DNA of 64,000 nt from Mycobacteriales bacterium (GTDB lineage Bacteria > Actinomycetota > Actinomycetes > JAFAQI01): assembly GCA_035776655.1 (NCBI GenBank), contig DASTWK010000017.1, positions 11,940 through 75,939 of the forward strand, written 5' to 3'. The first letter of the stretch is position 1. Each line of letters opens with the position of its first letter. The notes beneath the pieces were generated by a model. It was given only the letters and a program-made list of their open reading frames with translations. It made no database searches and was not told the origin of the DNA. The position numbers were made by a program, and so were the translations under genes. Shown piece after piece: positions 325 to 12,191 of the stretch.

Positions 325-1095
325 TCATGCGGCCAGGGTCGCGTGCATCTCCCAGACGAGGACCTCCGCAGGTTCGGTGGCGGTCACTCGCTGGCCGCCC
401 GTGCCCGTGAAGCGGACGGCATCACCGGACTCGAGCCGCCCCGCTCCCTCCAGGTCGACGCTGCCGCGGGGGACGAACAGGTGCAGGAACGGCGCGTCCG
501 GAAGTTGCACGCTCTGTCCGGCGGTGAGCCGCGCAGCGTAGAGCGCGGCGTAACGGTTCTTGATGCGGATCGCGGCACCGCCGTCGTGCTTCGGCAGGCC
601 GGACGCCACCGGCACCAGGCCACCGCCCAACAGCTCGGCATCGATCTCGAGCTGCTCATAGCCGGGCTCGATGCCGCGCTCGTCCGGCACCACCCACATC
701 TGCACGAAATGCACGGGGTCGGTCGCCGCGGAGCCGAGATCGGCGCGGCCAGCGGCGTCGTTCTTCTCGGAGTGCAGGATGCCGGTGCCGGCGCTCATCC
801 GCTGCGCCAGCCCCGGATAGATGACGCCGTTGTTGCCCTGCGAGTCCTGGTGGACGAGCTGCCCACGCAGCACCCAGGTCACGATCTCCATGTCGCGGTG
901 TGGGTGGGTCTCGAAGCCGGTGCCCGGCTCGACGACGTCGTCGTTGTTGACGAGCAGGAGCCCGTGGTGGGTGTTGCGGCTGTCGTAGTGGTGCCCGAAC
1001 GAGAAGCTGTGCCGGGACTGCAGCCAGCCGACGTCGGTGCGGAAGCGCGACTGCGCGCGACGGATGTCCACGCTGGGGTTCGGCAGGTTGTCCAC
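325..1095 (-). CDS. Pirin family protein
   Basis: HSRHSFSFG, GFETHPHRDMEIVTWV and GILHSE pirin metal-binding motifs. Start moved to GTG 1095 (MDNLPNPSVDIRRA). Confidence 0.9.
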   Translation of the reverse strand: MDNLPNPSVDIRRAQSRFRTDVGWLQSRHSFSFGHHYDSRNTHHGLLLVNNDDVVEPGTGFETHPHRDMEIVTWVLRGQLVHQDSQGNNGVIYPGLAQRMSAGTGILHSEKNDAAGRADLGSAATDPVHFVQMWVVPDERGIEPGYEQLEIDAELLGGGLVPVASGLPKHDGGAAIRIKNRYAALYAARLTAGQSVQLPDAPFLHLFVPRGSVDLEGAGRLESGDAVRFTGTGGQRVTATEPAEVLVWEMHATLAA

Positions 1096-1165
1096 GTCTC
1101 GCCGAACGGCCGGCAGCGCGCAGGCATTCCCGCCGTACCGGAGGAGCGCTCCTGTGCGAGCGCGC

Positions 1166-2614
1166 TCAGCCTTCGGGGCTGTCGCTGCCGCCCGGTGGCG
1201 CCGATGGTGCGGCAACGCGCTCTTGGTGCGGCACGACGGCATAGTGGCTGTCCGCGACCATCGTCAGCACCGCGTCCGGCGGTGGGGCGAGCTCGGCGCG
1301 TTCGGCGGCCGCCTGCAACCGCGTGCAGATCTTGTGGGTGGCCAGGAAGGAGAGCGGGGGCGCGATGATGAGCAGCACCCGCATGGCCCAGGTGAAGTCC
1401 ATCATGTCGAGGCCGAACGTGAAGGGGATGACGTCGTTCGCGCCGGCCACCGACAGCACGACGTAGAACACCAGAACCGCAATGCCGACGCCGGTGCGGA
1501 ACGGGTGGTAGCGCGGCCGTTGCAACAGCTCGTGCGGCTCGTGATCCCGGGTGAGCAGTCGCTCCACGAACGGGTGCGCGTAAATCATGACGAACAGCAG
1601 CACCGGCAGCACGACGGCGGGGACGAACACGTTCCAGGGGATCGTGTGGCCGAGGAAGCGGCTCTCCAGGTGCGGCATCAGCCGGAGCGATCCCTCGAGC
1701 CAGAACATGTACCAGTCGGGTTGAGATCCGGCCGAGACGACCGCCGGGTCATAGGGCCCGTAGAGCCAGATCGGGTTGATCTGTGCGTACGCTGCGAGCA
1801 GGGCCAGCACCCCGAAGATCATGAAGAACAGGCCCTGCGACTTCATCGTGTAGTTGGGCCAGATGTGGCTGCCGACGACGTTGCGTTCCTGATAGCCCTC
1901 CTTCGGGAACTGCGTGTGCTTCTGGTGCCAGACCGCCATCAGGTGCGCCGTGATGAGCACGAGCATCAGCCCGGGGATCAGCAGGACGTGCAGGATGTAG
2001 AGCCGTGGGATGAAAGCCTCTGCGCCCGGATACTGGCCGTTGAAGATGAACGTCGCGAGGTAGGGCCCGACCCAAGGGATGGACTCGAGGATCGAGTAGG
2101 CGATGCGCACGCCGGTTCCGGACAGCAGGTCGTCCGGCAGCGAGTACCCGGCGAAGCCCTCGACGATGGCCAGGATCGCCAGGGTGACGCCGATGATCCA
2201 GTTCATCTCGCGCGGCTTGCGGAAGGCGCCGGTGAAGAAGATCCGGCACATGTGCAGCACGATCGCGGCGACGAACAGAAGCGCGGCCCAGTGGTGGATC
2301 TGGCGGATCAGCAGCCCGGCTCGGATGTCGAACGTGATGTGGATGACAGATTCGTAGGCCTCGCTCATCCGCACGTGCTGCAGCGGCAAGTACGAGCCGT
2401 GGTAGCGGATGTCGTGCTCGGACGCGTGGAAGAAGAATGTCAGGAACGTGCCCGTGACGATGAGAATGGCGAACGTGTACAGGGCGATCTCGCCCAGCAT
2501 GAACGACCAGTGATCCGGAAAGATCTTGTTGAGCTGGTTGCGCAGCAGGTGGCCGGTGCCCAGCCGATCGTCCATCGCCCGCATGGTCCGGCGGGTCTTG
2601 CTCGGCTTGCTCAC
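1166..2614 (-). CDS. qcrB: Cytochrome bc complex cytochrome b subunit (actinobacterial, menaquinol type)
   Basis: PDHWSFMLGEIALY, IRQIHHWAA..LHMCRIFFTGAFRKPREMNW, LHV...AHL heme ligands, Qo motif PDWY. Confidence 0.95.
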   Translation of the reverse strand: MSKPSKTRRTMRAMDDRLGTGHLLRNQLNKIFPDHWSFMLGEIALYTFAILIVTGTFLTFFFHASEHDIRYHGSYLPLQHVRMSEAYESVIHITFDIRAGLLIRQIHHWAALLFVAAIVLHMCRIFFTGAFRKPREMNWIIGVTLAILAIVEGFAGYSLPDDLLSGTGVRIAYSILESIPWVGPYLATFIFNGQYPGAEAFIPRLYILHVLLIPGLMLVLITAHLMAVWHQKHTQFPKEGYQERNVVGSHIWPNYTMKSQGLFFMIFGVLALLAAYAQINPIWLYGPYDPAVVSAGSQPDWYMFWLEGSLRLMPHLESRFLGHTIPWNVFVPAVVLPVLLFVMIYAHPFVERLLTRDHEPHELLQRPRYHPFRTGVGIAVLVFYVVLSVAGANDVIPFTFGLDMMDFTWAMRVLLIIAPPLSFLATHKICTRLQAAAERAELAPPPDAVLTMVADSHYAVVPHQERVAAPSAPPGGSDSPEG

Positions 2615-2620
2615 CGCGGG

Positions 2621-3712
2621 TCACTCATCCTTGTTGTCCCGCGCCCAGAAGCTCGGGCCGAGCGGCATGTCGAACGGCCGCTGAGCCCGGAAGTAGCCCT
2701 CCCGGTCGACGTAGATCGGCAGCTGGGGAAGGGCGCGCGCGGCCGGCCCGAAGATGACCGTGCACCCGCGCGGCACGTCGAACGTCGACTGGTGGCAGGG
2801 GCAGAGCAGGTAGCCGGTCTGTCGCTCGAACAGTCCGACCGGGCAGCCGGCGTGGGTGCAGATCTTCGAGTAGGCGACGTGGTCGTCGGCCGCCCAGTGC
2901 TCTCGGCCGGGTAAGGGCTGGTTCACGCCGGGGCCGAGGTGGATGAGGAGCACGACGCTCTCGGCGTTGACCGGAAAGGAGGAGTCCGGGTCGTCCTCCG
3001 GCATCACCGTCACCATGCCACCGATGTCGATGTCGCCGAGGCGCACCGGCACCCGCGTGTCGATGTCGACCAGACGGATGTCCTTGGTCCAGGAGTTCGC
3101 GCGCAGCCGCGCCACCGGCCGCGGGCCCAGGTCCCGCAACCCGACGACGAACGGCACCGGCAGCAGCCCGAGCGCGGCCAACATCGTGCGGCGGACGAAG
3201 CTGCGCTGCTGCAGGCCCATCTCGGTGACCCCGCCGATGAGCTGCTCCTCGGCGGCGAACTCGTCCTCCGGCGAGGAGTGGTGCGTCGGGCGGTGTTGCT
3301 CCGACTTGACGGCCGGGATCAGGTGCTTGCCGATCAGAATCATTCCGACGCCGAGCCCGAGCATGGTCAGCCCGAGTCCGCTGCCGAGCACGAGGTTGAG
3401 CAGGTTGCCGAGGTGAGCGTCGTGAATCGGCAGCAAGATGTAGCCGAAGGTGAACAACAGCGATCCGGCGACCGACGCGACGAACGCGACCGTCACCGCG
3501 AACGAGACCCGCTTCTCTGCCGCCGGGTCGCGGTTGGAGCGCGGCGGCTTCTCCTGCGTCACTGCCGGCGCCGGGTGGGTGTGCGCCTCCGGGTCGGTCG
3601 GCCGGTGGAGCACGGCGTCGTAGGACGTGGCCATCGTCTCCGAGGCCAGGGGATAGGCGGGCAGCGGCAACTCCGCGGGGACCCGTGGAGTCTCCTCGCC
3701 GCGTTCGGTCAT
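2621..3712 (-). CDS. qcrA: Rieske iron-sulfur subunit of cytochrome bc complex
   Basis: CTHAGCP and CPCHQSTFD Rieske boxes, three N-terminal TM segments, RRSFVRR motif. Start chosen at ATG 3712. Confidence 0.93.
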   Translation of the reverse strand: MTERGEETPRVPAELPLPAYPLASETMATSYDAVLHRPTDPEAHTHPAPAVTQEKPPRSNRDPAAEKRVSFAVTVAFVASVAGSLLFTFGYILLPIHDAHLGNLLNLVLGSGLGLTMLGLGVGMILIGKHLIPAVKSEQHRPTHHSSPEDEFAAEEQLIGGVTEMGLQQRSFVRRTMLAALGLLPVPFVVGLRDLGPRPVARLRANSWTKDIRLVDIDTRVPVRLGDIDIGGMVTVMPEDDPDSSFPVNAESVVLLIHLGPGVNQPLPGREHWAADDHVAYSKICTHAGCPVGLFERQTGYLLCPCHQSTFDVPRGCTVIFGPAARALPQLPIYVDREGYFRAQRPFDMPLGPSFWARDNKDE

Positions 3713-3722
3713 CGGGGCGCGG

Positions 3723-3747
3723 CTACCCAGGCAAACGAGCGGCAAAC
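3723..3747 (-). promoter_or_regulatory. SigF/SigB-type promoter motif for qcrAB (GTTT-N15-GGGTAG)
   Basis: Minus strand reads GTTT gccgctcgtttgcct GGGTAG, ending 10 nt before the qcrA ATG. Confidence 0.6.
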
Positions 3748-3790: not shown

Positions 3791-3847
3791 TCGCGACTCA
3801 GCGCCCGTGTGGCGCGCCGCTGCCGGCCGAGAGGGAGGGGACCGCGG

Positions 3848-4507
3848 GTGCCCTACACGAGCGTCTTCGACCAGATCTCGACATTCGAGTGGTCACTCGC
3901 CGGCGCCGTGTTCGCCCTCGTCCTCGCCGTCCTCGCGTTCGCCGTCTTCCGCTACCGCGCCGCTGCCCGAGACCATGCCTCCCAGGAAACCGAGCACCCG
4001 AAGGTCGAGCTGGTCTACGCCGTGCTGCTCCTGCTGGTTGCCATCGGCATCGTGAGCTACACGAGCCAGGTCGGCCAGCGCGACAGCGCCGTGGCCAGCA
4101 GCCCGGCCGTCCACCTGCAGGTGACCGGCTTCCAGTGGTGCTGGCGGTTCAGCTACGTCGGTGAACCGGTCACGGTGACCGCGACCTGCCAGAACGGCCA
4201 CTATCCGACGGTGGTGCTGCCGGCGCGGGAGCCCATTCACGTCACCACGACCTCCGGGGACGTCATCCACTCCTTCTGGATTCCCGAGTTCCGCTACAAG
4301 ATGGACTCCTTTCCCCACCACACCAACTCCTTCGACCTGACGATCCCGCGTGAAGGGCAGTGGCTCGGCCACTGCGCGGAGTTCTGCGGACTCGACCACG
4401 CGACGATGCTCTTCCACGTGAAGGCGGTCTCACCCACCGCGTTTCGTGCCTGGCTGCACACCCGAGCCACGACCGCTGCCGCCGCCACCGGCGGCCCGCG
4501 CTCGTGA
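3848..4507 (+). CDS. ctaC: Cytochrome c oxidase subunit II (CuA, no fused cytochrome c)
   Basis: Two TM helices, GFQWCWRF, DVIHSFW and CAEFCGLDHATM CuA ligands. GTG 3848 follows a purine-rich RBS. Confidence 0.93.
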   Translation: MPYTSVFDQISTFEWSLAGAVFALVLAVLAFAVFRYRAAARDHASQETEHPKVELVYAVLLLLVAIGIVSYTSQVGQRDSAVASSPAVHLQVTGFQWCWRFSYVGEPVTVTATCQNGHYPTVVLPAREPIHVTTTSGDVIHSFWIPEFRYKMDSFPHHTNSFDLTIPREGQWLGHCAEFCGLDHATMLFHVKAVSPTAFRAWLHTRATTAAAATGGPRS

Positions 4508-6141
4508 CGACGGCCGAGGTCGCCCGGCCGGACGAGGTCCTGCCGTCGGTGCCGCATGTCGGGGGCTGGCTGCTCACGACTGACCACAAACGCATCGCGG
4601 CGATGACGCTGGCCGTGGCGACGTTCCTGTTCTTCGGCATGGGCGTCCTGGCGCTCATCATGCGTTCCCAGCTGGCCCAACCCGGGCTGTCGATCGTGAG
4701 CCACGACGTCTACAACCAGATCTTCACGATCCACGGCTCCGGCATGATCTATCTGGTCATCACGCCGTTCGCCATCGCACTCGGCGTCTACCTCGTGCCG
4801 CTGCAGATCGGCGCACCGGCCATCGCCGCCCCGAAGACCACCATGCTCGGGTTCTGGCTCTACGTCATCGGTGCGGTGTCGCTGCTCTCCGGGTTCGCCT
4901 TGACCGGCGGCGCCGGCAGTGACGGGTGGACGGCGTACCCACCCTTGTCGGACAGCCAGTTCACCCAGGGCAAGGGCATGGACCTGTGGATGTTCGGCGT
5001 CTTCGTCGCCGTCCTCGGCATGATCCTCATGAGCGCCACCCTGTTGTGGACCGTGCTCATGAAGCGGATGCCGACGATGACGATGTTGCGGCTGCCGGTC
5101 TTCACGTGGTCGATGGTGGTGTCGGTGCTGATGGTGCTCGGCGCGTTCCCGTCACTGCTCGCGGCGCTGGGGCTGCTCGCCGTCGGACGGATGGACCCGA
5201 GCGTGTTCGACCACAACATCTGGAACATCGGGTTCCAGCACCTGTTCTGGTTCTACGGCCACCCGGTCGTCTATGTGATGTTCTTCCCGTTCGTCGGCGC
5301 TGTCGCCGAGGTGTTGTCGACGTTCGCGGGGCGACCGTTCTCGGGCTACAAGCCCACGGTGTTCTCCCTGCTGGCCTTCGCCGCGCTGTCGATGAGCGTG
5401 TGGGGCCACCACATGTTCACGACCGGACAGGCGACGAACGGTTACTACCAGCTGACGTCCACGTTGTTGCTGGTGCCGGCCGGCATCGAGTACTTCGGCA
5501 TGCTGTCGACGCTCATCGGCGGCAAGCTGCGGTTTCCGGTGCCGATGCTGTTCGCGCTCGCGTTCATTCCGCAGTTCCTGGTCGGCGGACTGACCGGCAT
5601 CATGGTCGCCACGCCCGGCCTGGACTACCACGCGCAGGACAGCTACTTCGTCGTCGGACACTTCCACTACACGCTGCTTGCCGGCAGCGTGTTCGGCCTG
5701 TTTGCCGGCTTCTACTTCTGGTTTCCCAAGGTCACCGGGGTGATGCTGCGCGAGGGCCTCGGCAAGCTGCACTTCTGGCTGATGGTGGTCGGCACCAATG
5801 TGACGTTCCTGCCGTTCTTCGCGCTCGGCATGCTCGGCATGCCGCGCCGGGTGGCGACCTATCCCGACCTGCCGTGGTGGGGAACGCTCAACCTCATCTC
5901 CACGATCGGCGCCGGCATCCTCGGCCTGGCGATGATTGCCTTCGCGATGAACATCGCCCTGTCGTTGACGTTCCGTCAGATTGCGCCCGCCGATCCGTGG
6001 GGCGGCCACACCCTCGAATGGGTGACGTCGTCACCGCCGCCACCGATGAACTTCAACGCGGACTGGCCGCTGCCGCGGGTGACGAGCTTCACGCCGCTGC
6101 TCGACCTGCGCAAGCGGGCGGCGGCGCGGGCCGCGTCATGA
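4504..6141 (+). CDS. ctaD: Heme-copper oxidase subunit I (A-family fold, atypical proton-channel residues)
   Basis: TDHKRI, IHGSGM, GHPVVY, WGHHMF, VGHFHY, GMPRR. GTGA overlap with the ctaC stop. Confidence 0.95.
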   Translation: MTTAEVARPDEVLPSVPHVGGWLLTTDHKRIAAMTLAVATFLFFGMGVLALIMRSQLAQPGLSIVSHDVYNQIFTIHGSGMIYLVITPFAIALGVYLVPLQIGAPAIAAPKTTMLGFWLYVIGAVSLLSGFALTGGAGSDGWTAYPPLSDSQFTQGKGMDLWMFGVFVAVLGMILMSATLLWTVLMKRMPTMTMLRLPVFTWSMVVSVLMVLGAFPSLLAALGLLAVGRMDPSVFDHNIWNIGFQHLFWFYGHPVVYVMFFPFVGAVAEVLSTFAGRPFSGYKPTVFSLLAFAALSMSVWGHHMFTTGQATNGYYQLTSTLLLVPAGIEYFGMLSTLIGGKLRFPVPMLFALAFIPQFLVGGLTGIMVATPGLDYHAQDSYFVVGHFHYTLLAGSVFGLFAGFYFWFPKVTGVMLREGLGKLHFWLMVVGTNVTFLPFFALGMLGMPRRVATYPDLPWWGTLNLISTIGAGILGLAMIAFAMNIALSLTFRQIAPADPWGGHTLEWVTSSPPPPMNFNADWPLPRVTSFTPLLDLRKRAAARAAS

Positions 6142-6620
6142 GCACCCCGACGGTCATCGCCGGCTGGGGCGCCGTCAACGGGGTGCTGGTCGCCATCCTG
6201 CTCGCGTACGGCGGGGGCGTCTTCGAGCTCTCGCTCTATGCATCGGTGGTGCTGCTGCTCGAGCTGGTGGCCGTGGCGGCCTTCGTCAGCAACCAGCGGC
6301 TGGGGGACACCCCTCCCGTCTCACCGGCGCCGAGCCGCAGTCGGCAGTCCCTGCTGGCGGCGCTGGTCGTCGCTTTCGTCGGGCTGGGGCTGGTCTACCG
6401 GGTGTACATGATGATCCCGGCGGCCTATCCGGGCCTGGCGCTCCTCGGCGAGTGGGGCAAGGCGCTGTGGGAGCGCATCTCACCGGATGAGGCCGACGAC
6501 GTGCCGGAGCCCGAGCCGGCGGAAGGCGGCGGCGGTGCCGCTGGTGCGATCGCAGTGGCCGGCGCGGTGGCTGCCGGCGTCGCCACCGCCCGGTCGCGGT
6601 GGCGGCGGCGGACGGAGTGA
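6138..6620 (+). CDS. Small multi-TM membrane protein, possible oxidase subunit IV (CtaF-like)
   Basis: ATGA overlap with ctaD; about four hydrophobic segments with an acidic/Pro linker. The CtaF call rests on position and topology only. Confidence 0.55.
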   Translation: MSTPTVIAGWGAVNGVLVAILLAYGGGVFELSLYASVVLLLELVAVAAFVSNQRLGDTPPVSPAPSRSRQSLLAALVVAFVGLGLVYRVYMMIPAAYPGLALLGEWGKALWERISPDEADDVPEPEPAEGGGGAAGAIAVAGAVAAGVATARSRWRRRTE

Positions 6621-7195
6621 TGGCGATGGGCGTTGCGCACATGGCGGAGATGGGACTCGAGACGTCGGTGCTGGCTCCGGTCATCGTCCTGTTGGCGCGG
6701 CGCGTCCGGCTGCCCCTCGATCGGCTGGCCGTGCCGGCCGCTGCCGCACTCCCGCTGTTCCTCGGCGTCCACTCCGCGGTGACGATGACGATGCCGTTCC
6801 GCGAACCCCCGTTCTGGCAGCACCTCGGGCTGCACGCGCTGCTCCTTGCCGCCGGGGTCATTTTCTGGCTGCCGGTGCTCGGCGGTCGGCGCCGGCTCAG
6901 CGAACCGGGTCGCATGGTCTACCTCTACCTGGCGATGCCGACGATGGACCTGTCCGGCGTCTACGTCGTGCTGCGCGGCGACGCAGCGGGCGGTCTGGCG
7001 ATGATCGTGGCGATGCTGCCGGTCGGCCTCACCGCAGTGGCAATCACGTGGCGGTGGATCGTGGCGGAGGAACGCGCCGCGCGCGCGACCGCCTCACTGG
7101 CGGAGTGGGATGCCGACGAGCGCCGCCAGGGCGGTCACGCCGATGAACACCCAGGTGATGTAGTCACCGACGTGGCCGGAGTGCAACCGGCGTAG
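6620..7195 (+). CDS. Cytochrome c oxidase assembly protein (caa3 CtaG-like)
   Basis: AHMAEM..APVIVL and QHLGLHALLLAAGVIFWLPVL His-bearing TM motifs; overlaps the upstream stop. Confidence 0.7.
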   Translation: MAMGVAHMAEMGLETSVLAPVIVLLARRVRLPLDRLAVPAAAALPLFLGVHSAVTMTMPFREPPFWQHLGLHALLLAAGVIFWLPVLGGRRRLSEPGRMVYLYLAMPTMDLSGVYVVLRGDAAGGLAMIVAMLPVGLTAVAITWRWIVAEERAARATASLAEWDADERRQGGHADEHPGDVVTDVAGVQPA

Positions 7196-8929
7196 CCCGG
7201 ATCCCACCATCGCGAACGGGTCGAGAACGCGTTCGGCGGCGCGCCGGATCTTCTCGGCGTACAGCCCGAGCGCCGCGACGAGCAGCGCCAGCACCGTCGA
7301 GGTGAGCCCCAGCGCGACACCCAGGGTTGTCCAGTCGATGCCGGTCGGAAGGGCAACGGAATGGGCCGCTCGACCGAACAGCGCCTGCTGCGCATATCCG
7401 GCGTGGTCGACGAACCGGGTGGCGCCGCGGCCGAGGGCGTGGGTGATCGGCGAATAGATGCCGCAGACGAGGCAGCCGGCGACCAACGTGACGATCGCGA
7501 GCATCATCGTCGCGGGCATGCGTGGCAGGCTCTGGGTCTCCCGCTCCTCCTGGTCACCTGACGTCTGTTGCTGATCTTCGGCCGGCACCGGCCCCAACCC
7601 GAGGAAGATGCGGGCTCCCGCGCGCAGCACCGCGCCACCGGTGAGCGCGGAGACCGCGACGAACAGCACGGGGCCGATCCAATAACCACGCGCCAGCAGC
7701 GCGTCCTCGCCGATCGCCTTGCCCAGGCTCGTCGCGAACGGCGGCAGCCCGGACAAGGCGAGCCCCGCAACGGCGAACAGCACGGCAGTCGCCTTCGCAT
7801 CCCGCCCCTTGCCGTGCAACGTGGCCTCGTCGACGCTGCCATAGCGGGCGAGGATGACGCCGGCGAGCAAGAACAGCGCCGACTTGGCTCCGGCGTGTCC
7901 CAGCACGTAAACCGCCGCACCAGCGGTGCCGGAGTCGTCGAGGGTGGCGGCGGCACAGATGAACAAGCCGACGTGAGCGATCGTCGAGTAGGCGAGTAGC
8001 CGCTTGAGGTGGCGTTGCATCAGGCACATCACAGCCCCGACGACGGCGGTGAGGATGCCGAGGACGAGCAAGGCCCGGCGGATGTCGTCAGGCGGAAGGA
8101 TCCCGGAGAAGGTCGTCCAGTAGACGCGGAAGACACCGTAGACGCCGAGCTCGACCATGATGCCCGAGAACATGACGCACACCGGTGTCGGGGCGACTGC
8201 GTGCGCATCGGCGAGCCAGAAATGGAACGGAACCATCGCGGCCTTGACCAACCAGCCGGTGACGACGAGCACGAACGCGATGACGACCAGTGCATCGAGG
8301 GGGGACCGGTCGAGCACCTGACCGATCTGAGCGAGACCCAACTGCCCCGTGTGTGCGTAGATCAGTCCGATCCCCATGAGCGTCAGGTAGGCGCCGAAAG
8401 AGTTGACGATGCCGAAGTTGAGGGCACCCTGCACCGATGTCGGGTCCTCCACCTTGAAGCCAGTGAGGGCATAGGCCACCGCTCCCATCAGCTCGAAGAA
8501 CACGAACATGTCGAACAGGTCGCCGGTCAGCGCGAACCCGGTCATGCCGGCGAGGAACAGCAGCATCAGCGCATGGAAATGCGCCTCGACGGAGTCGAAG
8601 TAGCGCCAGGAGAAGACGAGCGCGCACAGCATCAAGGCGCCGGCGAGCAGCGCCGCTCCGCTCCCGACGCGGTCGGCCACCAGCACGATGCCGACGCTGT
8701 GCCCGTGTTTCGGGGTCCAGTTGCTTGCCCACGTCACCACCCGCCCGCCGGCGGTGTGGGCGAACAGCGCTGCGTCGAGTCCGACCGTGGCCGCGGCGGT
8801 GCCAGTGGCGAGAACGTCGATGAGCGTCCGCGGCAGCCACCGGCCCACCGACAAGAGGACGGCCGCCGCGATGATCGGGATGACAATGGCAAGCGGTGCG
8901 AGCTGTGCAGCTCCCGAGTGGAAGTTCAT
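7094..8929 (-). CDS. mrpD: Mrp/complex I antiporter-like subunit (MrpD type, with NuoL/MrpA-like C-terminal extension)
   Basis: DLFDMFVFFELM, VKAAMVPFHFWLADAH, LKRLLAYSTIAHVG, GLPPF..GK; ends RRLHSGHVGDY. Confidence 0.85.
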   Translation of the reverse strand: MNFHSGAAQLAPLAIVIPIIAAAVLLSVGRWLPRTLIDVLATGTAAATVGLDAALFAHTAGGRVVTWASNWTPKHGHSVGIVLVADRVGSGAALLAGALMLCALVFSWRYFDSVEAHFHALMLLFLAGMTGFALTGDLFDMFVFFELMGAVAYALTGFKVEDPTSVQGALNFGIVNSFGAYLTLMGIGLIYAHTGQLGLAQIGQVLDRSPLDALVVIAFVLVVTGWLVKAAMVPFHFWLADAHAVAPTPVCVMFSGIMVELGVYGVFRVYWTTFSGILPPDDIRRALLVLGILTAVVGAVMCLMQRHLKRLLAYSTIAHVGLFICAAATLDDSGTAGAAVYVLGHAGAKSALFLLAGVILARYGSVDEATLHGKGRDAKATAVLFAVAGLALSGLPPFATSLGKAIGEDALLARGYWIGPVLFVAVSALTGGAVLRAGARIFLGLGPVPAEDQQQTSGDQEERETQSLPRMPATMMLAIVTLVAGCLVCGIYSPITHALGRGATRFVDHAGYAQQALFGRAAHSVALPTGIDWTTLGVALGLTSTVLALLVAALGLYAEKIRRAAERVLDPFAMVGSGLRRLHSGHVGDYITWVFIGVTALAALVGIPLRQ

Positions 8930-8938
8930 CGTGGTCGC

Positions 8939-9286
8939 CTAGCCCTGAAGGGCCACGAGCTCGTCCGGGTCGACCGTGTCGTGCCGTTTGGCGATCTGGA
9001 TCGACAGCGCGAGCAGCAGTGCCGTGACCGTCGCGGACACGACGATGTCGGTCAGGCAGAGTGACTGCACCACAGGGTCGACGACCTGCTTGGTCGGCTT
9101 CGCGGTTGACCCGAACACCGGTGCCGGCGCGTTGGTCTGGTAGCCGACCGCCATCAGCAGCACGTAGGTCCCGGCCTGAGCGATCGACAGGCAGATCGTC
9201 GCGTGGACCAGGTTGCGGCTGCGGGCGATGCCGAACCCGCCCACCAGCACGAGGGCGCCGGCGACGAAGTAGGCGTAGTGGCTCAT
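8939..9286 (-). CDS. mrpC: Mrp subunit C
   Basis: 115 aa, three TM, DPVVQSLCLTDIVV motif. Confidence 0.88.
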   Translation of the reverse strand: MSHYAYFVAGALVLVGGFGIARSRNLVHATICLSIAQAGTYVLLMAVGYQTNAPAPVFGSTAKPTKQVVDPVVQSLCLTDIVVSATVTALLLALSIQIAKRHDTVDPDELVALQG

Positions 9287-10053
9287 CGCAGCTCACCGGG
9301 CTGCGGGACCGAGATCGACTCGCGCTGGTGACCCAACAACACGGCTTGGTCGAAGAACCGGGCCAACAGGACGATCACGCCACTGGCGACCTCCACTCCC
9401 ACGATCGCGTTCAGGATCGGAACGGTGCCCGCGGAGAACATCTGGCCGAGCGTGCCGTAGGACAACATGTTGGTCAGGTATGCCGCAGACGTGAGGATTC
9501 CGGCGATGCCGAGGATGGCGAAGCCGGCTGCGCCGATGGCTTCGCCGTGCTCGAACAGGGCCACGGGGCGCAGGCGGTCGAGGGCCTGGTAGGAGCCGGC
9601 GACGTAGAGCAGGTGGAGGCCGGTCGCGAGGATGACCCCGCCCTGGAAGCCCCCGCCGGGGGTCAGGTGCCCGTGGGTCACGACGTCGACTCCGATGACC
9701 AGCGTCGTCGGCAACATCACGTATCCCAGCAGCCGAGTCGGCTCGAGCACCCGTCCCATCGGTGACGGACCGTGCTCCTGCTCCTCCCGCGAGGGGCGGA
9801 GGAGCGCCACGGCGCCGATGACCGAACCGAAGAGGATGATCTCCTCGACCAGGGTGTCGAGGCCGCGCTGGTCGAACACGATCGACGTGACCGCGTTGGC
9901 CGCACCATGGGCGACCGCTGCCGGCACGGCCATGTCCCGATAGGGATGGAACGTGCTGCCGAACGAGGGCAGGTCCAGCGCCGCCAGCGCGTAACAGACG
10001 CCGACGCCGATCAGTCCGAGCCCGAGCAGCCACATGCGGGCGGTGCGGCTCAC
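9283..10053 (-). CDS. mrpB: Mrp subunit B (MnhB domain)
   Basis: NAVTSIVFDQRGLDTLVEE and HLTPGGGFQGG motifs. Confidence 0.9.
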   Translation of the reverse strand: MSRTARMWLLGLGLIGVGVCYALAALDLPSFGSTFHPYRDMAVPAAVAHGAANAVTSIVFDQRGLDTLVEEIILFGSVIGAVALLRPSREEQEHGPSPMGRVLEPTRLLGYVMLPTTLVIGVDVVTHGHLTPGGGFQGGVILATGLHLLYVAGSYQALDRLRPVALFEHGEAIGAAGFAILGIAGILTSAAYLTNMLSYGTLGQMFSAGTVPILNAIVGVEVASGVIVLLARFFDQAVLLGHQRESISVPQPGELR

Positions 10054-10289
10054 CGGCCCCCCCGGATCTTGCTCACGGCCAGGAGAACCATCAGTGGCAC
10101 GAAGGCGGTGCCCACGGCAAGCTGGCTCAGCGCGACATCCGGTGCTTGCAAGACGATGAACAGCACGGTGAGTGACAACCCGAACAGTGACAACGTCACC
10201 GCCTGGCGTCGGGGATCCGAGGTCAGCACCACCGCCACCCCGGCGAAGAGCACCAGTGTCAGCGCGAGGCCGACCACTGCGGTCATCAT
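10050..10289 (-). CDS. DUF4040 / MbhD-like small Mrp subunit
   Basis: 79 aa, QAPDVALSQLAVG motif; coupled to mrpB. Confidence 0.8.
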   Translation of the reverse strand: MMTAVVGLALTLVLFAGVAVVLTSDPRRQAVTLSLFGLSLTVLFIVLQAPDVALSQLAVGTAFVPLMVLLAVSKIRGGR

Positions 10290-10308
10290 CGGCGGCTCCG
10301 TTCGGAGG

Positions 10309-10617
10309 TCATTGCGGTCCCTCGGGTTCGATGATCTGGCGCTGCTGCGCCCCCACCCGTCCGATCGCGGCCTCGAGGATCGGTCCGGACAACATGACCA
10401 ACGCCGTCGTGAGGATCTCCAGGCCGGTGGCGATGCTCCACGTGCTGTCGACGACGAGTGCGGCGCAGAACAGCGGGGCCCCCACCGTGGTCACCGGAGT
10501 GATGAAGTGCAGCTTGCCGAACGTGGTCCGCATCACGACCGCGCCGAAAGCCGCGAGCACGATGATCAGCAGCGACAGGGACAGCATCACGTCTGCCGCC
10601 AGCGTCCGCCCGCTCAT
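10309..10617 (-). CDS. mrpG: Mrp subunit G
   Basis: KLHFITPVTTVG motif, three TM; ATG 10617 overlaps the mrpF stop. Confidence 0.8.
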   Translation of the reverse strand: MSGRTLAADVMLSLSLLIIVLAAFGAVVMRTTFGKLHFITPVTTVGAPLFCAALVVDSTWSIATGLEILTTALVMLSGPILEAAIGRVGAQQRQIIEPEGPQ

Positions 10618-10868
10618 GGGCGCGGCCCCAGCAGACGTGTGTAGACGAGGGTGCCCGTCACCGTCAGGACGGCCAGCACCAGCGGCACGATGAGGTAGAT
10701 GGACTGCTGCATCGCGCGGGAGAACGCGAGCAGCACGAGCACCGTGACGGCCCCGGCGATCTCGACGCCGACGAGCCGGTTCACCGCGTCTCCGCGCGAG
10801 CCCACCCAGAGGGCGGGGAACAGGCCGAGCGCGATCAACACGATGCAGGCCGCGAGCCATGTCGTCAC
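10614..10868 (-). CDS. mrpF: Mrp subunit F
   Basis: 84 aa, GDAVNRLVGVE motif, three TM; GTG 10868. Confidence 0.8.
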   Translation of the reverse strand: MTTWLAACIVLIALGLFPALWVGSRGDAVNRLVGVEIAGAVTVLVLLAFSRAMQQSIYLIVPLVLAVLTVTGTLVYTRLLGPRP

Positions 10869-11356
10869 CGCGTCACCACCACGTGCATGCTCGGGCCGCC
10901 GTCGAGCAGGCCGTGCACGACCAGCTCGCCGGTGTCGGGGTCGTCGTGCACGACGAAGCTGCCCGGCGTCGCTGACACCAGCACGATTGCCGCCGCGCGC
11001 CGGGTGTTGGCGCGCAGGTCTGCCCCCGGGGCGACCGCGACGCGCACGAACTTTCCTTCGTCGGCGCGGCGGCCCAGCAGCCGCAGCCAAGGCAGTGCCA
11101 GCACCCGGACGGTGTCGGTGACGATGATCAGCGGAAGGCGGAGGGCCCAGACACCCGCCCGCGCCGGATAGCGCCACTGCGCGCGGAGCGCGCGCCGGGC
11201 GGCGACGGCCAACACCCCGCACACGATCGCCGACGGGGTCGCGAGGATGAGATCACCGGGGGTGACGGCTGACAGCGTCAGCAGCCAGATGCCGAGGCCG
11301 GCCCCGGCCCACCACAGGGCCTCGAGCAGCCACAGGAGGATGACCACGGCGCTCAT
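10865..11356 (-). CDS. mrpE: Mrp subunit E
   Basis: N-terminal TM pair, VSATPGSFVV and LVVHGL motifs; ATG 11356. Confidence 0.75.
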   Translation of the reverse strand: MSAVVILLWLLEALWWAGAGLGIWLLTLSAVTPGDLILATPSAIVCGVLAVAARRALRAQWRYPARAGVWALRLPLIIVTDTVRVLALPWLRLLGRRADEGKFVRVAVAPGADLRANTRRAAAIVLVSATPGSFVVHDDPDTGELVVHGLLDGGPSMHVVVTR

Positions 11357-11363
11357 CTGCCCC

Positions 11364-12191
11364 TCACCCGGCCCGGCCATTCGCGGCGGCCAGCTCGGTT
11401 CGGTGCGGGTTCGGTCGCTCCCGTTCGCAGACCCAGATCTCATGTCCCGGCCGCGCCGTCACCCGCAGTCCGGCGCTGCGCAGCATGGCCTCGACGCCGC
11501 TGGCGTTGGCGAGCCACCAGTTGGTGGGGTCGCCGGCCATCCTGTTCTCGACGAATGCCATCGCCGGCCAGCCGGGGTCCAGCAGCCGGTGCCGCTCGTC
11601 GAGCGACAGGTCCTCCGGCGGGTCCACGTGCTCCTCGCCCGGCAACGTCAGCGTCTGGAAGACCAGCCGCCCGCTGACCCGTTCAGCCACCAGATCGAGC
11701 GCGAGCAGCGGATAACGCAGGTGGTAGAGCACGCCCATGAACAGGACGAGGTCGAACTGTTCGTCCAGCCGGGCCAGGTCATAGACGCCCAGCTGGCGCA
11801 GTTCCACCCGGTGGCTCAGGCCGAGCTGCTCGCGTGCCCACCGCGCCTGCTCCAGGTAGTGCTCGTCGTGGTCCACGGCCAGGACGTGGGCGCCGCGCTG
11901 CGCGAGCTCGAAGCTGTAGAACCCGGCGTTGCAGCCGATGTCCAACGCCCGGCAGCCACTCAGATCCGTCGGCACGGCGGTCTGGACCTGCTGCCACTTG
12001 AATCGGGGGAAGTCTCCGAGCGGGTGGTCCGGCGCGGTCTGTACGCCGCCGGGCAGGTGCAGGTTGTGGAACCACGGACCGAGCCGGGCGACGTCGGCAT
12101 GTCCGCCCGCAGTGCCTGCGGACTGCAAGGTGCGTCCCGCCTCACGGCGCCGTTGTGGCCGGGTCGAGATGAGGTCCCTCTGCCGCGTCAC
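11364..12191 (-). CDS. SAM-dependent methyltransferase (TIGR04290 / Rta_06860-like)
   Basis: PWFHNLHL..QTAPDHPLGDFP, LDIGCNAGFYS, LFMGVLYHLRYP, DPTNWW. GTG 12191 overlaps the upstream stop. Confidence 0.8.
   Translation of the reverse strand: MTRQRDLISTRPQRRREAGRTLQSAGTAGGHADVARLGPWFHNLHLPGGVQTAPDHPLGDFPRFKWQQVQTAVPTDLSGCRALDIGCNAGFYSFELAQRGAHVLAVDHDEHYLEQARWAREQLGLSHRVELRQLGVYDLARLDEQFDLVLFMGVLYHLRYPLLALDLVAERVSGRLVFQTLTLPGEEHVDPPEDLSLDERHRLLDPGWPAMAFVENRMAGDPTNWWLANASGVEAMLRSAGLRVTARPGHEIWVCERERPNPHRTELAAANGRAG

What the first reader, a model, noticed from the sequence alone, without database searches (positions are those of the whole stretch)
4504..6141. Heme-copper oxidase subunit I lacking both canonical D- and K-channel residues, with Glu at the K-channel Lys position
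Seen, by eye alignment to A1 motifs and numbered from GTG 4504: the metal ligands (IHG, GHP, HH, HFH) and cross-link Tyr (HPVVY) are intact. D-channel GAPDxAFPRxN reads GAPAIAAPKTT (Asp to Ala106, Asn to Thr113). HPEVY reads YGHPVVY (Glu to Val255; the A2-type Tyr is present but its Ser is Gly). K-channel VPTGVK reads VPAGIE (Thr to Ala326, Lys to Glu329 at 5488-5490), and the helix VI Ser position is Ala. Knowledge: A-family enzymes need these residues for proton uptake and pumping, and B/C families use a Ser/Thr/Tyr K-analogue. Inference: a distinct subfamily with another proton route, non-pumping chemistry, different ion coupling or a different substrate. Retention of the Tyr favours O2 over NO reduction.
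Basis: partly seen in the sequence, partly recalled or inferred. Interest (0 to 1): 0.8.

Follow-up and report, generated by a model that had tools for sequence, protein, structure and literature searches.

The report
Actinobacterial oxidase with rebuilt proton path
This gene encodes the catalytic subunit of a second, conserved oxygen-reducing respiratory enzyme of Actinomycetota. It has lost one of the two standard proton-input channels. In the other, the key lysine is replaced by an invariant glutamate, so the enzyme is a natural, apparently undescribed test case for how these enzymes move protons.

Summary
ORF 4504-6141 is an A-family haem-copper oxidase subunit I with all six His ligands and the cross-link Tyr.

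- **D-channel:** seven of the eight defining residues are replaced (Asp to Ala106, Glu to Val255).
- **K-channel:** three of the four defining residues are replaced (Lys to Glu329, Thr to Ala326, Ser to Ala268).

This is not decay. All 119 homologues at 61% identity or more carry Val255, Glu329 and Tyr330, with synonymous codon variation. The D-channel positions drift freely.

The clade has 100% support and a long stem. It is the sister paralogue of canonical actinobacterial CtaD, and the same genomes (the window's own included) also keep canonical copies. Relatives were found in at least 558 species genomes.

The gene sits in a conserved cluster:
- a CuA subunit II whose K-channel entrance Glu is invariant;
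- subunit I;
- two small membrane proteins;
- a QcrB-type cytochrome b.

No subunit III is present. About 42% of loci also lie next to a selenocysteine formate dehydrogenase with an NrfD subunit.

Best reading: an O2 reductase that feeds protons through a single remodelled K-type route built on Glu329. It would resemble the B and C families in function while being A-family by descent. Pumping stoichiometry is unknown. I found no published description. I rate it a new variant of a known kind, of moderate to high interest.

The parts
4504..6141 (+). Subunit I (CtaD-type) of the variant A-family haem-copper oxidase, 545 aa. Key codons: Ala106 4819-4821, Thr113 4840-4842, Val255 5266-5268, Tyr257 5272-5274, Ala268 5305-5307, Ser319 5458-5460, Ala326 5479-5481, Glu329 5488-5490, Tyr330 5491-5493, Gln357 5572-5574.
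   Evidence: AF2 model with pTM 0.85; best PDB matches are mycobacterial and corynebacterial CtaD at TM 0.88.
3809..4507 (+). Subunit II (CoxB/CtaC-type), a minimal 232-aa form with two TM helices and a CuA domain. The CuA ligands (H..CxxxCxxxH..M) and the TM2 Glu equivalent to R. sphaeroides II-E101 are invariant in the clade.
6138..6620 (+). s1, a small membrane protein of 160 aa. Its ATG overlaps the subunit I stop (ATGA). It sits where ctaF sits in canonical operons, but I detected no similarity to CtaF and no family match.
   Evidence: (found in 65 of 84 loci).
6620..7195 (+). s2, a membrane protein of about 190 aa predicted as five to six helices. It has invariant His50, Met127 and Met131, plus FW-P and P-x-x-D-L motifs. 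It resembles Caa3_CtaG weakly (27.4 bits, cut-off 27.7), so it may be a copper-insertion factor or a subunit. Its 3' end overlaps the convergent mrpD gene by about 100 nt.
   Evidence: (found in 67 of 84 loci). AF2 model with pLDDT 86 has no PDB fold match.
2621..3745 (-). QcrA-type Rieske iron-sulfur protein, transcribed divergently from subunit II. The CTHAGC and CPCH cluster motifs are present.
   Evidence: NF050121 scores 309 bits against a cut-off of 275.
1166..2614 (-). QcrB-type cytochrome b, a paralogue 60% identical to the genome's canonical QcrB. It is the most constant partner of the oxidase genes, present in 80 of 84 loci.
   Evidence: NF050120 scores 640 bits against a cut-off of 500.
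7094..11443 (-). Mrp/Mbh-type antiporter-like module (MnhE, MnhG, MbhD, MnhB/MbhE, MrpC, one MrpD; no MrpA). It is convergent with the oxidase operon. This is a recurrent but non-obligate neighbour, and a functional link is not shown.
   Evidence: An orthologous module lies next to the oxidase in 6 of 84 loci. It appears to lie in the same operon in L062 (ORFs and Pfam checked). In L086 it is co-directional after COX1 by tblastn order only. Elsewhere in the genome, or absent, in other carriers.

Best explanation
The ORF encodes the catalytic subunit of an accessory, second haem-copper O2 reductase of Actinomycetota. It is a paralogue that split from canonical CtaD early in the phylum and then changed quickly along its stem.

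Shown:
- The redox core is intact: haem a and a3 ligands, CuB, the His-Tyr cross-link Tyr, the haem-propionate Arg pair, and CuA in subunit II.
- The D pathway has been abandoned. Seven of its eight defining positions now hold non-polar or freely varying residues, Glu286 is Val, and no subunit III gene (CtaE or CtaF) accompanies it.
- The K region is under strict selection in a new state: Glu329-Tyr330 in place of Lys-(Ile/Phe), Ala326 in place of Thr, near-invariant clade-specific Gln357 on helix IX, and an invariant entrance Glu in subunit II.

Inferred:
- All substrate protons, and any pumped protons, enter from the cytoplasm through this single remodelled K-type route.
- Glu329 acts as the mobile protonatable carrier, the role Lys362 (and Glu286 in the D path) plays in canonical enzymes.
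- Functionally the enzyme would then resemble the one-channel B and C families (compare HPIVY in ba3 with HPVVY here). I expect a lower pumping stoichiometry than 1 H+/e-, or none, and possibly a higher O2 affinity.
- Electrons reach CuA from a dedicated QcrB paralogue, with QcrA and QcrC encoded either in the cluster or by the canonical operon. In many species the branch is genetically tied to a menaquinone-linked selenocysteine formate dehydrogenase.
For: - **Formal alignment** to solved CtaD structures confirms every substitution.
- **Conservation:** in 119 homologues at 61-81% identity, Val255, Glu329, Tyr330, Tyr257 and all His ligands are 119/119 and Ala326 is 118/119. The D-channel positions vary: Asp site A/G/N/T/V; Asn139 site T/A/V; Asn207 site T/A; Ser142 site G.
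- **Codon variation:** synonymous changes at Val255 (GTC 54, GTG 31) and Ala326 (GCC 48, GCG 36), with the residue kept in 86 of 87 loci by the automated motif scan, and in the 87th, L078, by eye.
- **Tree:** the variant clade has support of 100 and a stem of 0.98 substitutions per site. It is sister to canonical actinobacterial CtaD (99), with a joint node of 97.
- **Paralogy:** all nine carrier genomes examined, and the window's own genome, also encode canonical D/E/K copies.
- **Divergent members** at 54-57% identity from other classes keep VPAG(I/M)EYF and HP(V/A)VY.
- **Subunit II:** CuA ligands and the II-E101-equivalent Glu are invariant.
- **No subunit III:** no CtaE or CtaF in any of 84 variant loci plus 3 divergent ones.
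- **Context:** cytochrome b in 80/84 loci, Rieske plus cytochrome c in 24-30/84, Fdh-NrfD in 35/84. In L003 the fdh genes and the oxidase genes form one overlapping-codon operon.
- **Fold:** A-family, TM 0.88 to mycobacterial CtaD.
- **Background:** one-channel operation of the B and C families (PMC11214002) and the channel definitions (PMC3084760).
Against: - No biochemical, transcript or structural data exist for any member.
- I could not obtain model coordinates, so the orientation of Glu329, Tyr330 and Gln357 towards a water-filled cavity is inferred only from helix register.
- A buried carboxylate in place of a lysine reverses the charge of the site. It could serve a different role, such as cation binding or structure.
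- The polar Thr359 and Ser299 equivalents are both Ala, so the upper K path would need water or other groups.
- Many loci lack their own Rieske and cytochrome c genes, so the electron route to CuA is assumed.
Confidence: 0.55

Rival explanations
1. It is a non-electrogenic 'scavenger' oxidase. With no working cytoplasmic channel, substrate protons come from the periplasmic side as in cNOR. The enzyme would remove O2 or dump electrons, for example from formate, without conserving energy. Glu329 would be structural.
For: Both canonical channels are altered. The upper K-path polar residues Thr and Ser are Ala. Several clade-specific polar residues (Asn241, Tyr244, Gln309, Tyr315) lie in periplasmic loops. 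cNOR is a precedent (PMC11214002).
Against: The subunit II Glu at the cytoplasmic K entrance is invariant, and Glu329-Tyr330 are invariant at mid-membrane depth. That pattern is hard to explain if the cytoplasmic route were unused. The proton-loading-site residues (Arg448, Arg449, Trp142, Asp374) are conserved.
Confidence: 0.15
2. It is a fully coupled proton pump (about 1 H+/e-) that uses an as yet unrecognised second route, so the missing residues are simply replaced in function.
For: The exit-side and proton-loading-site residues are conserved. The clade has about 20 specific conserved residues, including Ser79, Tyr83, Tyr120, Trp182 and Ser395, that could line a new path.
Against: D-channel positions vary freely within the clade, which indicates relaxed constraint. 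No conserved carboxylate or Tyr-Ser pair replaces Glu286: Tyr251 is Phe in 17 of 119 and position 252 is Gly or Ala. Subunit III is absent. All known one-channel families pump less (PMC11214002).
Confidence: 0.1
3. It reduces a different substrate (NO, or another small oxidant) rather than O2.
For: New HCO-derived NO reductases keep being found, and some carry a conserved Glu in the K region (sNOR; PMC11214002). The channel loss resembles that in the NORs.
Against: The cross-link Tyr and three CuB His ligands are invariant. There is no fourth (Glu) ligand motif for FeB. The family is A-derived, whereas the NORs derive from the B and C families. I noted no nir or nos genes in the loci whose gene calls I read, but I did not search for them across the 84 loci.
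Confidence: 0.07
4. It couples to another ion or to partner modules. The carboxylate at position 329 would bind or conduct Na+, or energy conservation would be handed to the neighbouring Mrp-type or NrfD modules.
For: An orthologous Mrp/Mbh-type module lies next to the oxidase in 6 of 84 loci from different families. It appears to share an operon with it in L062 (ORFs and Pfam checked), and in L086 it follows COX1 in the same direction by tblastn order. Fdh-NrfD is adjacent in 35 of 84 loci.
Against: Most carriers have the Mrp-like module elsewhere or lack it. There is no precedent for an A-family Na+ pump. Adjacency can reflect co-regulation alone.
Confidence: 0.07
5. It is a decaying duplicate, that is, a pseudogene in the making.
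For: It scores below NCBIfam's CtaD cut-offs (530 against 670 and 880), and canonical copies exist in the same genomes.
Against: The frames are intact. Mean column identity is 68% across Actinomycetes and Acidimicrobiia. The ligands and new motifs are invariant, with synonymous variation, and the operon partners are conserved.
Confidence: 0.01

Closest known systems
Canonical actinobacterial aa3 oxidase CtaD within the bcc-aa3 supercomplex (M. smegmatis 6ADQ/6HWH, M. tuberculosis 8HCR, C. glutamicum 7Q21)
   Same: It is the closest relative by sequence (about 44-47% identity, 472 bits) and by fold (TM 0.88). They share the 12-TM core, all metal ligands, the cross-link Tyr, a CuA subunit II, and genetic linkage to QcrB, QcrA and QcrC. 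The two are sister clades in the tree.
   Different: The canonical enzyme has a full D channel (Asp115, Glu) and a K channel (Lys, Thr). It also has the subunit III equivalents CtaE and CtaF, and a long CtaC. The variant has none of these. It has Glu329-Tyr330, a minimal 208-232 aa subunit II, and two unrelated small membrane proteins.
B-family oxidase (Thermus thermophilus ba3, 1EHK/3S8F)
   Same: Both lack a D channel, have a hydrophobic residue at the Glu286 position (HPIVY against HPVVY), lack subunit III, rely on a single K-region input route with a subunit II Glu at the entrance, and have a small CuA subunit II.
   Different: The variant is not a member by descent: 25 bits to ba3 against 472 bits to CtaD. 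The Thr, Ser and Tyr residues of the B-type K analogue are absent (the variant has Ala326, Ala268 and Glu329).
A2-type oxidases (Thermus caa3 2YEV, Rhodothermus marinus)
   Same: Both are A-family, lack Glu in helix VI, and often carry Tyr at the -4 position (YxHPxV).
   Different: [quoted passage not shown] Here Ser is Gly or Ala, the Tyr is Phe in 14% of members, and the D-channel Asp and Asn residues and the Lys are gone.
A-family variants already noted to lack channel residues
   Same: These are A-family enzymes with incomplete canonical channels, which shows that such losses recur. Examples are the archaeal COX1 with repeated K-channel loss (Degli Esposti et al. 2021, PMC8239418) and the Nitrosopumilus A-type proposed as an A-to-B intermediate (cited in PMC11214002).
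   Different: They belong to different lineages. None is described with an invariant Glu at the Lys position, nor with this operon. I found no paper on the actinobacterial clade.

Membership tests
Haem-copper oxidoreductase superfamily, O2-reductase type | Six conserved His ligands (low-spin haem x2, high-spin haem x1, CuB x3) in a 12-TM subunit I | tested here: met
   His77, His253, His302, His303, His386 and His388 are present and 118-119/119 in the clade. The model has 12 TM helices.
Haem-copper oxidoreductase superfamily, O2-reductase type | Cross-linked active-site Tyr (Tyr-I on helix VI, HPxVY) | tested here: met
   The Tyr257 residue is present in 119/119. The covalent cross-link itself cannot be tested from sequence.
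A family (by descent) | Groups with A-family subunit I in phylogeny, sequence and fold comparison | tested here: met
   Sister to actinobacterial CtaD at support 97-100. 472 bits to CtaD against 25 bits to ba3. TM 0.88.
A1 type (Pereira/Sousa definition) | D channel: Asp124, Asn199, Asn113, Asn131, Tyr35, Ser134, Ser193, Glu278 (P. denitrificans numbering) | tested here: not met
   Only the Asn113 equivalent (Asn71) is kept. The others are Ala106, Thr179, Thr113, Thr35, Gly116, Met173 and Val255 (definition in PMC3084760).
A2 type | D channel retained, with a Tyr-Ser pair (YSHPxV) replacing the helix VI Glu | tested here: not met
   The motif is YGHPVVY. Ser is Gly (106/119) or Ala, Tyr is Phe in 17/119, and the D-channel entrance residues are absent.
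A type, K channel | Lys354, Thr351, Ser291, Tyr280 (P. denitrificans numbering) | tested here: not met
   Glu329 (119/119), Ala326 (118/119), Ala268 (97/119), with Tyr257 kept. The subunit II entrance Glu is kept.
B type | No D channel, plus the alternative K channel (Thr, Ser and Tyr replacing Lys, Thr and Ser), and B-family descent | tested here: not met
   The D channel is absent, so that part is met. The alternative K residues are not present and descent is A-family.
NCBIfam aa3 CtaD (NF050116 / TIGR02891) | Score above the curated cut-off | tested here: not met
   530 bits against cut-offs of 880 and 670. The partner QcrB and QcrA do pass their models.
NO reductases of the HCO superfamily | Absence of the cross-link Tyr. 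For cNOR and qNOR, also Glu motifs H-x-Arom-x-E and HH-x-Arom-Arom-x17-E | tested here: not met
   Tyr257 is invariant. The His253 motif is H-P-V-V-Y, with no Glu at position +4 (motif definitions in PMC3084760).
Cytochrome c (CuA) oxidase as opposed to quinol oxidase | Complete CuA ligand set in subunit II | tested here: met
   HSFW...CAEFCGLDHATM. The ligands are invariant in 84 loci.

The most novel reading that the evidence does not exclude
The clade could be the oxygen-reducing core of a modular actinobacterial respiratory assembly. In this reading the oxidase has given up its own D-channel pump and subunit III, and energy coupling is carried partly or wholly by partner membrane modules.

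The candidate partners are the QcrB paralogue, the NrfD subunit of a co-transcribed selenocysteine formate dehydrogenase (a formate-to-O2 chain encoded in one operon), and in some lineages a co-operonic Mrp/Mbh-type antiporter-like module. Glu329 would serve as the single gated proton or cation carrier.
Probability: 0.1. Interest if true: 0.85.

Novelty: new variant of a known kind. Interest (0 to 1): 0.6.

Why it matters
Which residues gate proton uptake and pumping in haem-copper oxidases is a long-standing question. It has been studied mostly through loss-of-function mutants of Asp132, Glu286 and Lys362. Here evolution has made an A-family enzyme with none of these residues. It fixed a carboxylate where the lysine sits and has kept it for the whole history of a phylum.

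Measuring its H+/e- ratio, its O2 affinity and the effect of E329K or E329Q would test directly whether one channel with a carboxylate carrier can sustain catalysis and pumping on the A-family scaffold. It would also test whether the A-to-B style loss of the D channel has happened more than once.

The clade further marks an unrecognised branch of actinobacterial respiration. That branch comprises an alternative bcc-oxidase, often linked to formate dehydrogenase, in soil genera such as Streptomyces, Amycolatopsis, Pseudonocardia and Saccharomonospora. Current annotation labels these proteins inconsistently, sometimes as 'cbb3-type'.

Tried and rejected
1. **Link to S. coelicolor ctaD2 (SCO7234) and qcrB3 (SCO7236, found in spores; PMC7931247, PMC6414726).** A search with a Streptomyces member listed about 75 Streptomyces clusters before falling to other genera. 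None came from S. coelicolor, S. lividans or S. avermitilis. Those genes are probably canonical-type duplicates, so I dropped the lead.
2. **s1 as a diverged CtaF, and s2 as a diverged CtaE (subunit III).** hhalign of s1 against the genome's CtaF gave 7% probability. tblastn with the genome's CtaE and CtaF found nothing in any variant locus. The s2 model has no PDB fold match.
3. **Search of the 50%-identity representative library.** It returned only distant HCOs and gave no clade-specific information. It did supply outgroups and showed other representatives with non-Lys residues at the K site.
4. **Modelling to trace polar channels.** The AF2 model is good (pTM 0.85), but the tools return no coordinates, so no cavity or water-path analysis was possible.
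6. **Literature.** Nine full-text searches found no description of this clade. The library lacks most subscription-journal papers, so absence is not proof.
7. **Obligate Mrp linkage.** Rejected, because most carriers have the orthologous module elsewhere or lack it.
Full report
**Observation.** The ORF starts at GTG 4504, which overlaps the TGA of the upstream subunit II gene (GTGA), and ends at 6141, giving 545 aa. It is a COX1-family protein (Pfam PF00115, 424 bits). Its best NCBIfam models are the aa3 CtaD models, but it scores 530 bits, well below their cut-offs of 880 and 670.

A phmmer search of the PDB puts mycobacterial and corynebacterial CtaD first, at about 472 bits. The printed alignments are ungapped across the diagnostic motifs. 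They show:
- GAPDVAFPRLN becomes GAPAIAAPKTT.
- FGHPEVY becomes YGHPVVY.
- FGIVSE becomes VGAVAE.
- VPTGIK becomes VPAGIE.

All six His ligands and the cross-link Tyr257 are present.

Sousa et al. 2011 define the D channel by eight residues and the K channel by four (PMC3084760). Against those lists, seven D-channel positions are replaced and only the Asn113(Pd) equivalent, Asn71, survives. Three K-channel positions are replaced and only Tyr-I survives.

**Not decay, but a conserved clade.** A search of 5.8 billion proteins returned more than 100 homologues at 61-81% identity. They come from Streptomyces, Pseudonocardia, Amycolatopsis, Saccharomonospora, Prauserella, Actinoallomurus, Acidimicrobiales and many MAGs.

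Conservation across 119 of these homologues:

| Position | State in the clade |
|---|---|
| Val255, Glu329, Tyr330, Tyr257, all His ligands | 119/119 (His386 118/119 owing to one alignment gap) |
| Ala326 | 118/119 |
| Ser319 | 119/119 |
| Former D-channel Asp site | varies: A, G, N, T, V |
| Former D-channel Asn sites | varies: T, A, V |
| Former D-channel Ser site | mostly G |

The pattern is relaxed constraint on the D path and strict constraint on the new K-region state. Codons vary synonymously at Val255 (GTC 54, GTG 31) and Ala326 (GCC 48, GCG 36), while the residues are kept in every locus examined.

A scan of one genome per GTDB species found at least 558 species encoding a relative. 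In an even sample of 301 genomes across the phylum, only three besides the window's own carry it. So it is an accessory enzyme found in roughly 1-3% of species. The three sampled carriers, from other classes and 54-57% identical, still read VPAG(I/M)EYF and HP(V/A)VY.

**Origin.** A maximum-likelihood tree used 90 sequences: clade members, canonical copies from the same genomes, and diverse representatives. The variant clade has support of 100 and a long stem of 0.98 substitutions per site. It is sister to canonical actinobacterial CtaD (support 99), and the joint node has support 97. Acidimicrobiia members branch at its base.

All nine carrier genomes examined also encode one to four canonical copies with Asp, Glu and Lys intact. 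So does the window's own genome, on contig C91, together with ctaC, ctaF, ctaE and qcrCAB. This is the signature of an old duplication followed by a burst of change and then stasis. An AlphaFold2 model (pTM 0.85, 12 TM helices) matches mycobacterial CtaD best, at TM 0.88.

**Partners.** The gene order in the window is:
1. Pirin (-)
2. QcrB-type cytochrome b, 1166-2614 (-)
3. QcrA-type Rieske protein, 2621-3745 (-)
4. Subunit II, 3809-4507 (+)
5. Subunit I (+)
6. s1, 6138-6620 (+)
7. s2, 6620-7195 (+)
8. An Mrp/Mbh-type module, 7094-11443 (-)

. The genes beyond 11.4 kb are sugar-nucleotide and glycosyltransferase genes and are unrelated.

Gene content across 84 loci with 10-kb flanks:

| Neighbour | Loci |
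|---|---|
| Cytochrome b | 80 |
| s1 | 65 |
| s2 | 67 |
| Rieske | 30 |
| Cytochrome c | 24 |
| FdhA-FdhB-NrfD | 35 |
| Orthologous Mrp-like module | 6 |

The core order subunit II, subunit I, s1, s2 is constant. No locus contains CtaE or CtaF.

Subunit II is a minimal CuA protein. Its CuA ligands are invariant, and so is the TM2 Glu that aligns with R. sphaeroides II-E101, the cytoplasmic entrance of the K pathway. The window's cytochrome b and Rieske proteins pass NCBIfam's actinobacterial QcrB and QcrA models.

s2 is a helical membrane protein with invariant His and Met residues and a borderline Caa3_CtaG match. Its model has no PDB fold neighbour. s1 has no detectable family.

The formate dehydrogenase is the actinobacterial type (NF041513, 2026 bits) and carries a TGA selenocysteine codon. 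In Saccharomonospora marina it forms a single run of overlapping genes with the oxidase and cytochrome b. The window's genome carries this Fdh on another contig.

**Mechanism.**

*Shown:*
- The redox core and the CuA site are intact.
- The D path is stripped of its polar residues and is unconstrained.
- There is no subunit III.
- The K region is fixed in a new state, and its entrance Glu is retained.

*Inferred:*
- The enzyme reduces O2, because the Tyr cofactor is required for four-electron chemistry (PMC11214002).
- It takes all protons through one K-type route in which Glu329 is the protonatable carrier. Tyr330 may assist, as may Gln357, which lies at about the same membrane depth on the neighbouring helix IX by helix register.
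- This makes it functionally analogous to the one-channel B and C families, which pump about half as many protons (PMC11214002). The HPVVY motif parallels HPIVY of ba3.
- The loss of subunit III fits, because in canonical enzymes that subunit supports D-channel uptake and, in mycobacteria, contacts QcrB (PMC8361435).

*Not shown:*
- Whether the enzyme pumps, and at what stoichiometry.
- Whether it has a higher O2 affinity.
- Whether the Rieske protein and cytochrome c are borrowed from the canonical operon in species whose cluster lacks them.

**Comparison and novelty.** By descent the protein is A-family. By the residue definitions it is neither A1, A2 nor B, so the published classification scheme does not cover it (membership table). 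Losses of canonical channel residues within the A family have been noted before. Examples are the archaeal K-channel losses (PMC8239418) and a Nitrosopumilus A-to-B intermediate cited in PMC11214002. My representative set also contains other proteins with Gln, Ile, Leu, Ala or His at the Lys site, or lacking both channels. So the general phenomenon is known.

What appears new is this large actinobacterial clade with an invariant Glu-Tyr at the Lys position, its own operon architecture, and its linkage to formate dehydrogenase. Nine full-text searches found no description of it. The obvious candidate link, S. coelicolor ctaD2/qcrB3, did not hold up.

I rate it a new variant of a known kind. It is interesting mainly as a natural experiment on proton gating and as an unannotated respiratory branch. 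The main limits are the absence of any functional data, of model coordinates and of transcript data.

Noticed in passing
window 7094-11443 (-); also L012, L017, L027, L062, L086: An Mrp/Mbh-type module (MnhE, MnhG, MbhD, MnhB/MbhE, MrpC, a single MrpD, no MrpA) lies next to the oxidase cluster. Orthologous modules (MrpD 42-56% identical) lie next to the variant oxidase in 6 of 84 loci from different families. In L062 the module follows subunit I in one co-directional gene run (ORFs and Pfam checked). In L086 it is co-directional after COX1 by tblastn order only. Other carriers have it elsewhere in the genome or lack it.
   Followed up: partly
L003 4174-14140; 35 of 84 related loci; own genome contig C1 5260-10428: A selenocysteine (TGA, U189) actinobacterial formate dehydrogenase with an FdhB subunit and an NrfD-type membrane subunit is adjacent to the variant oxidase in about 42% of loci. 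In Saccharomonospora marina, fdhA-fdhB-nrfD-coxB-coxA-s1-s2-cytb form one run with overlapping stop and start codons. This suggests a dedicated formate-to-O2 branch.
   Followed up: partly
window 6620-7195 (+) against 7094-8929 (-): The s2 ORF runs about 45 codons past the point where its homologues end. It overlaps the 3' end of the convergent mrpD gene by about 100 nt. Either the tail is lineage-specific or the two genes really do overlap.
   Followed up: no
proteins P0129, P0132, P0137-P0142, P0157, P0159, P0211, P0232, P0235, P0260, P0272: Many 50%-identity representatives of A-like HCOs from metagenomes have Gln, His, Ile, Leu, Ala or Met at the K-channel Lys position. A few (P0235, P0260, P0272) lack both the D-channel and K-channel residues while keeping the Tyr. 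Non-canonical proton routes may therefore be common among uncharacterised HCO clades.
   Followed up: no
names: Public annotation labels members of this A-family clade inconsistently, as 'cytochrome c oxidase subunit I' or 'cbb3-type cytochrome c oxidase subunit I'. The cbb3 label is wrong for these proteins: they are A-family by tree and have a CuA partner.
   Followed up: yes
L078 about 11500-11620: In Streptomyces sp. NPDC100445, which carries two copies (L032 and L078), the L078 copy keeps all motifs. Its conserved C-terminal PPITS-APLLDLR segment is read in a different frame, so this is either a frameshift or a sequencing error.
   Followed up: no
window 325-1242 (-): A Pirin-family gene lies directly downstream of the cytochrome b gene. 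It is found in the same position in the closest relative, L010. Its significance is unknown.
   Followed up: no
L062 8549-9252: In one Streptosporangiaceae MAG, a 'Holin-X' family (PF07332) small membrane protein and a weak DUF3618 match (21.4 bits, below the 24.9 cut-off) lie between cytochrome b and subunit II, inside the same co-directional run.
   Followed up: no
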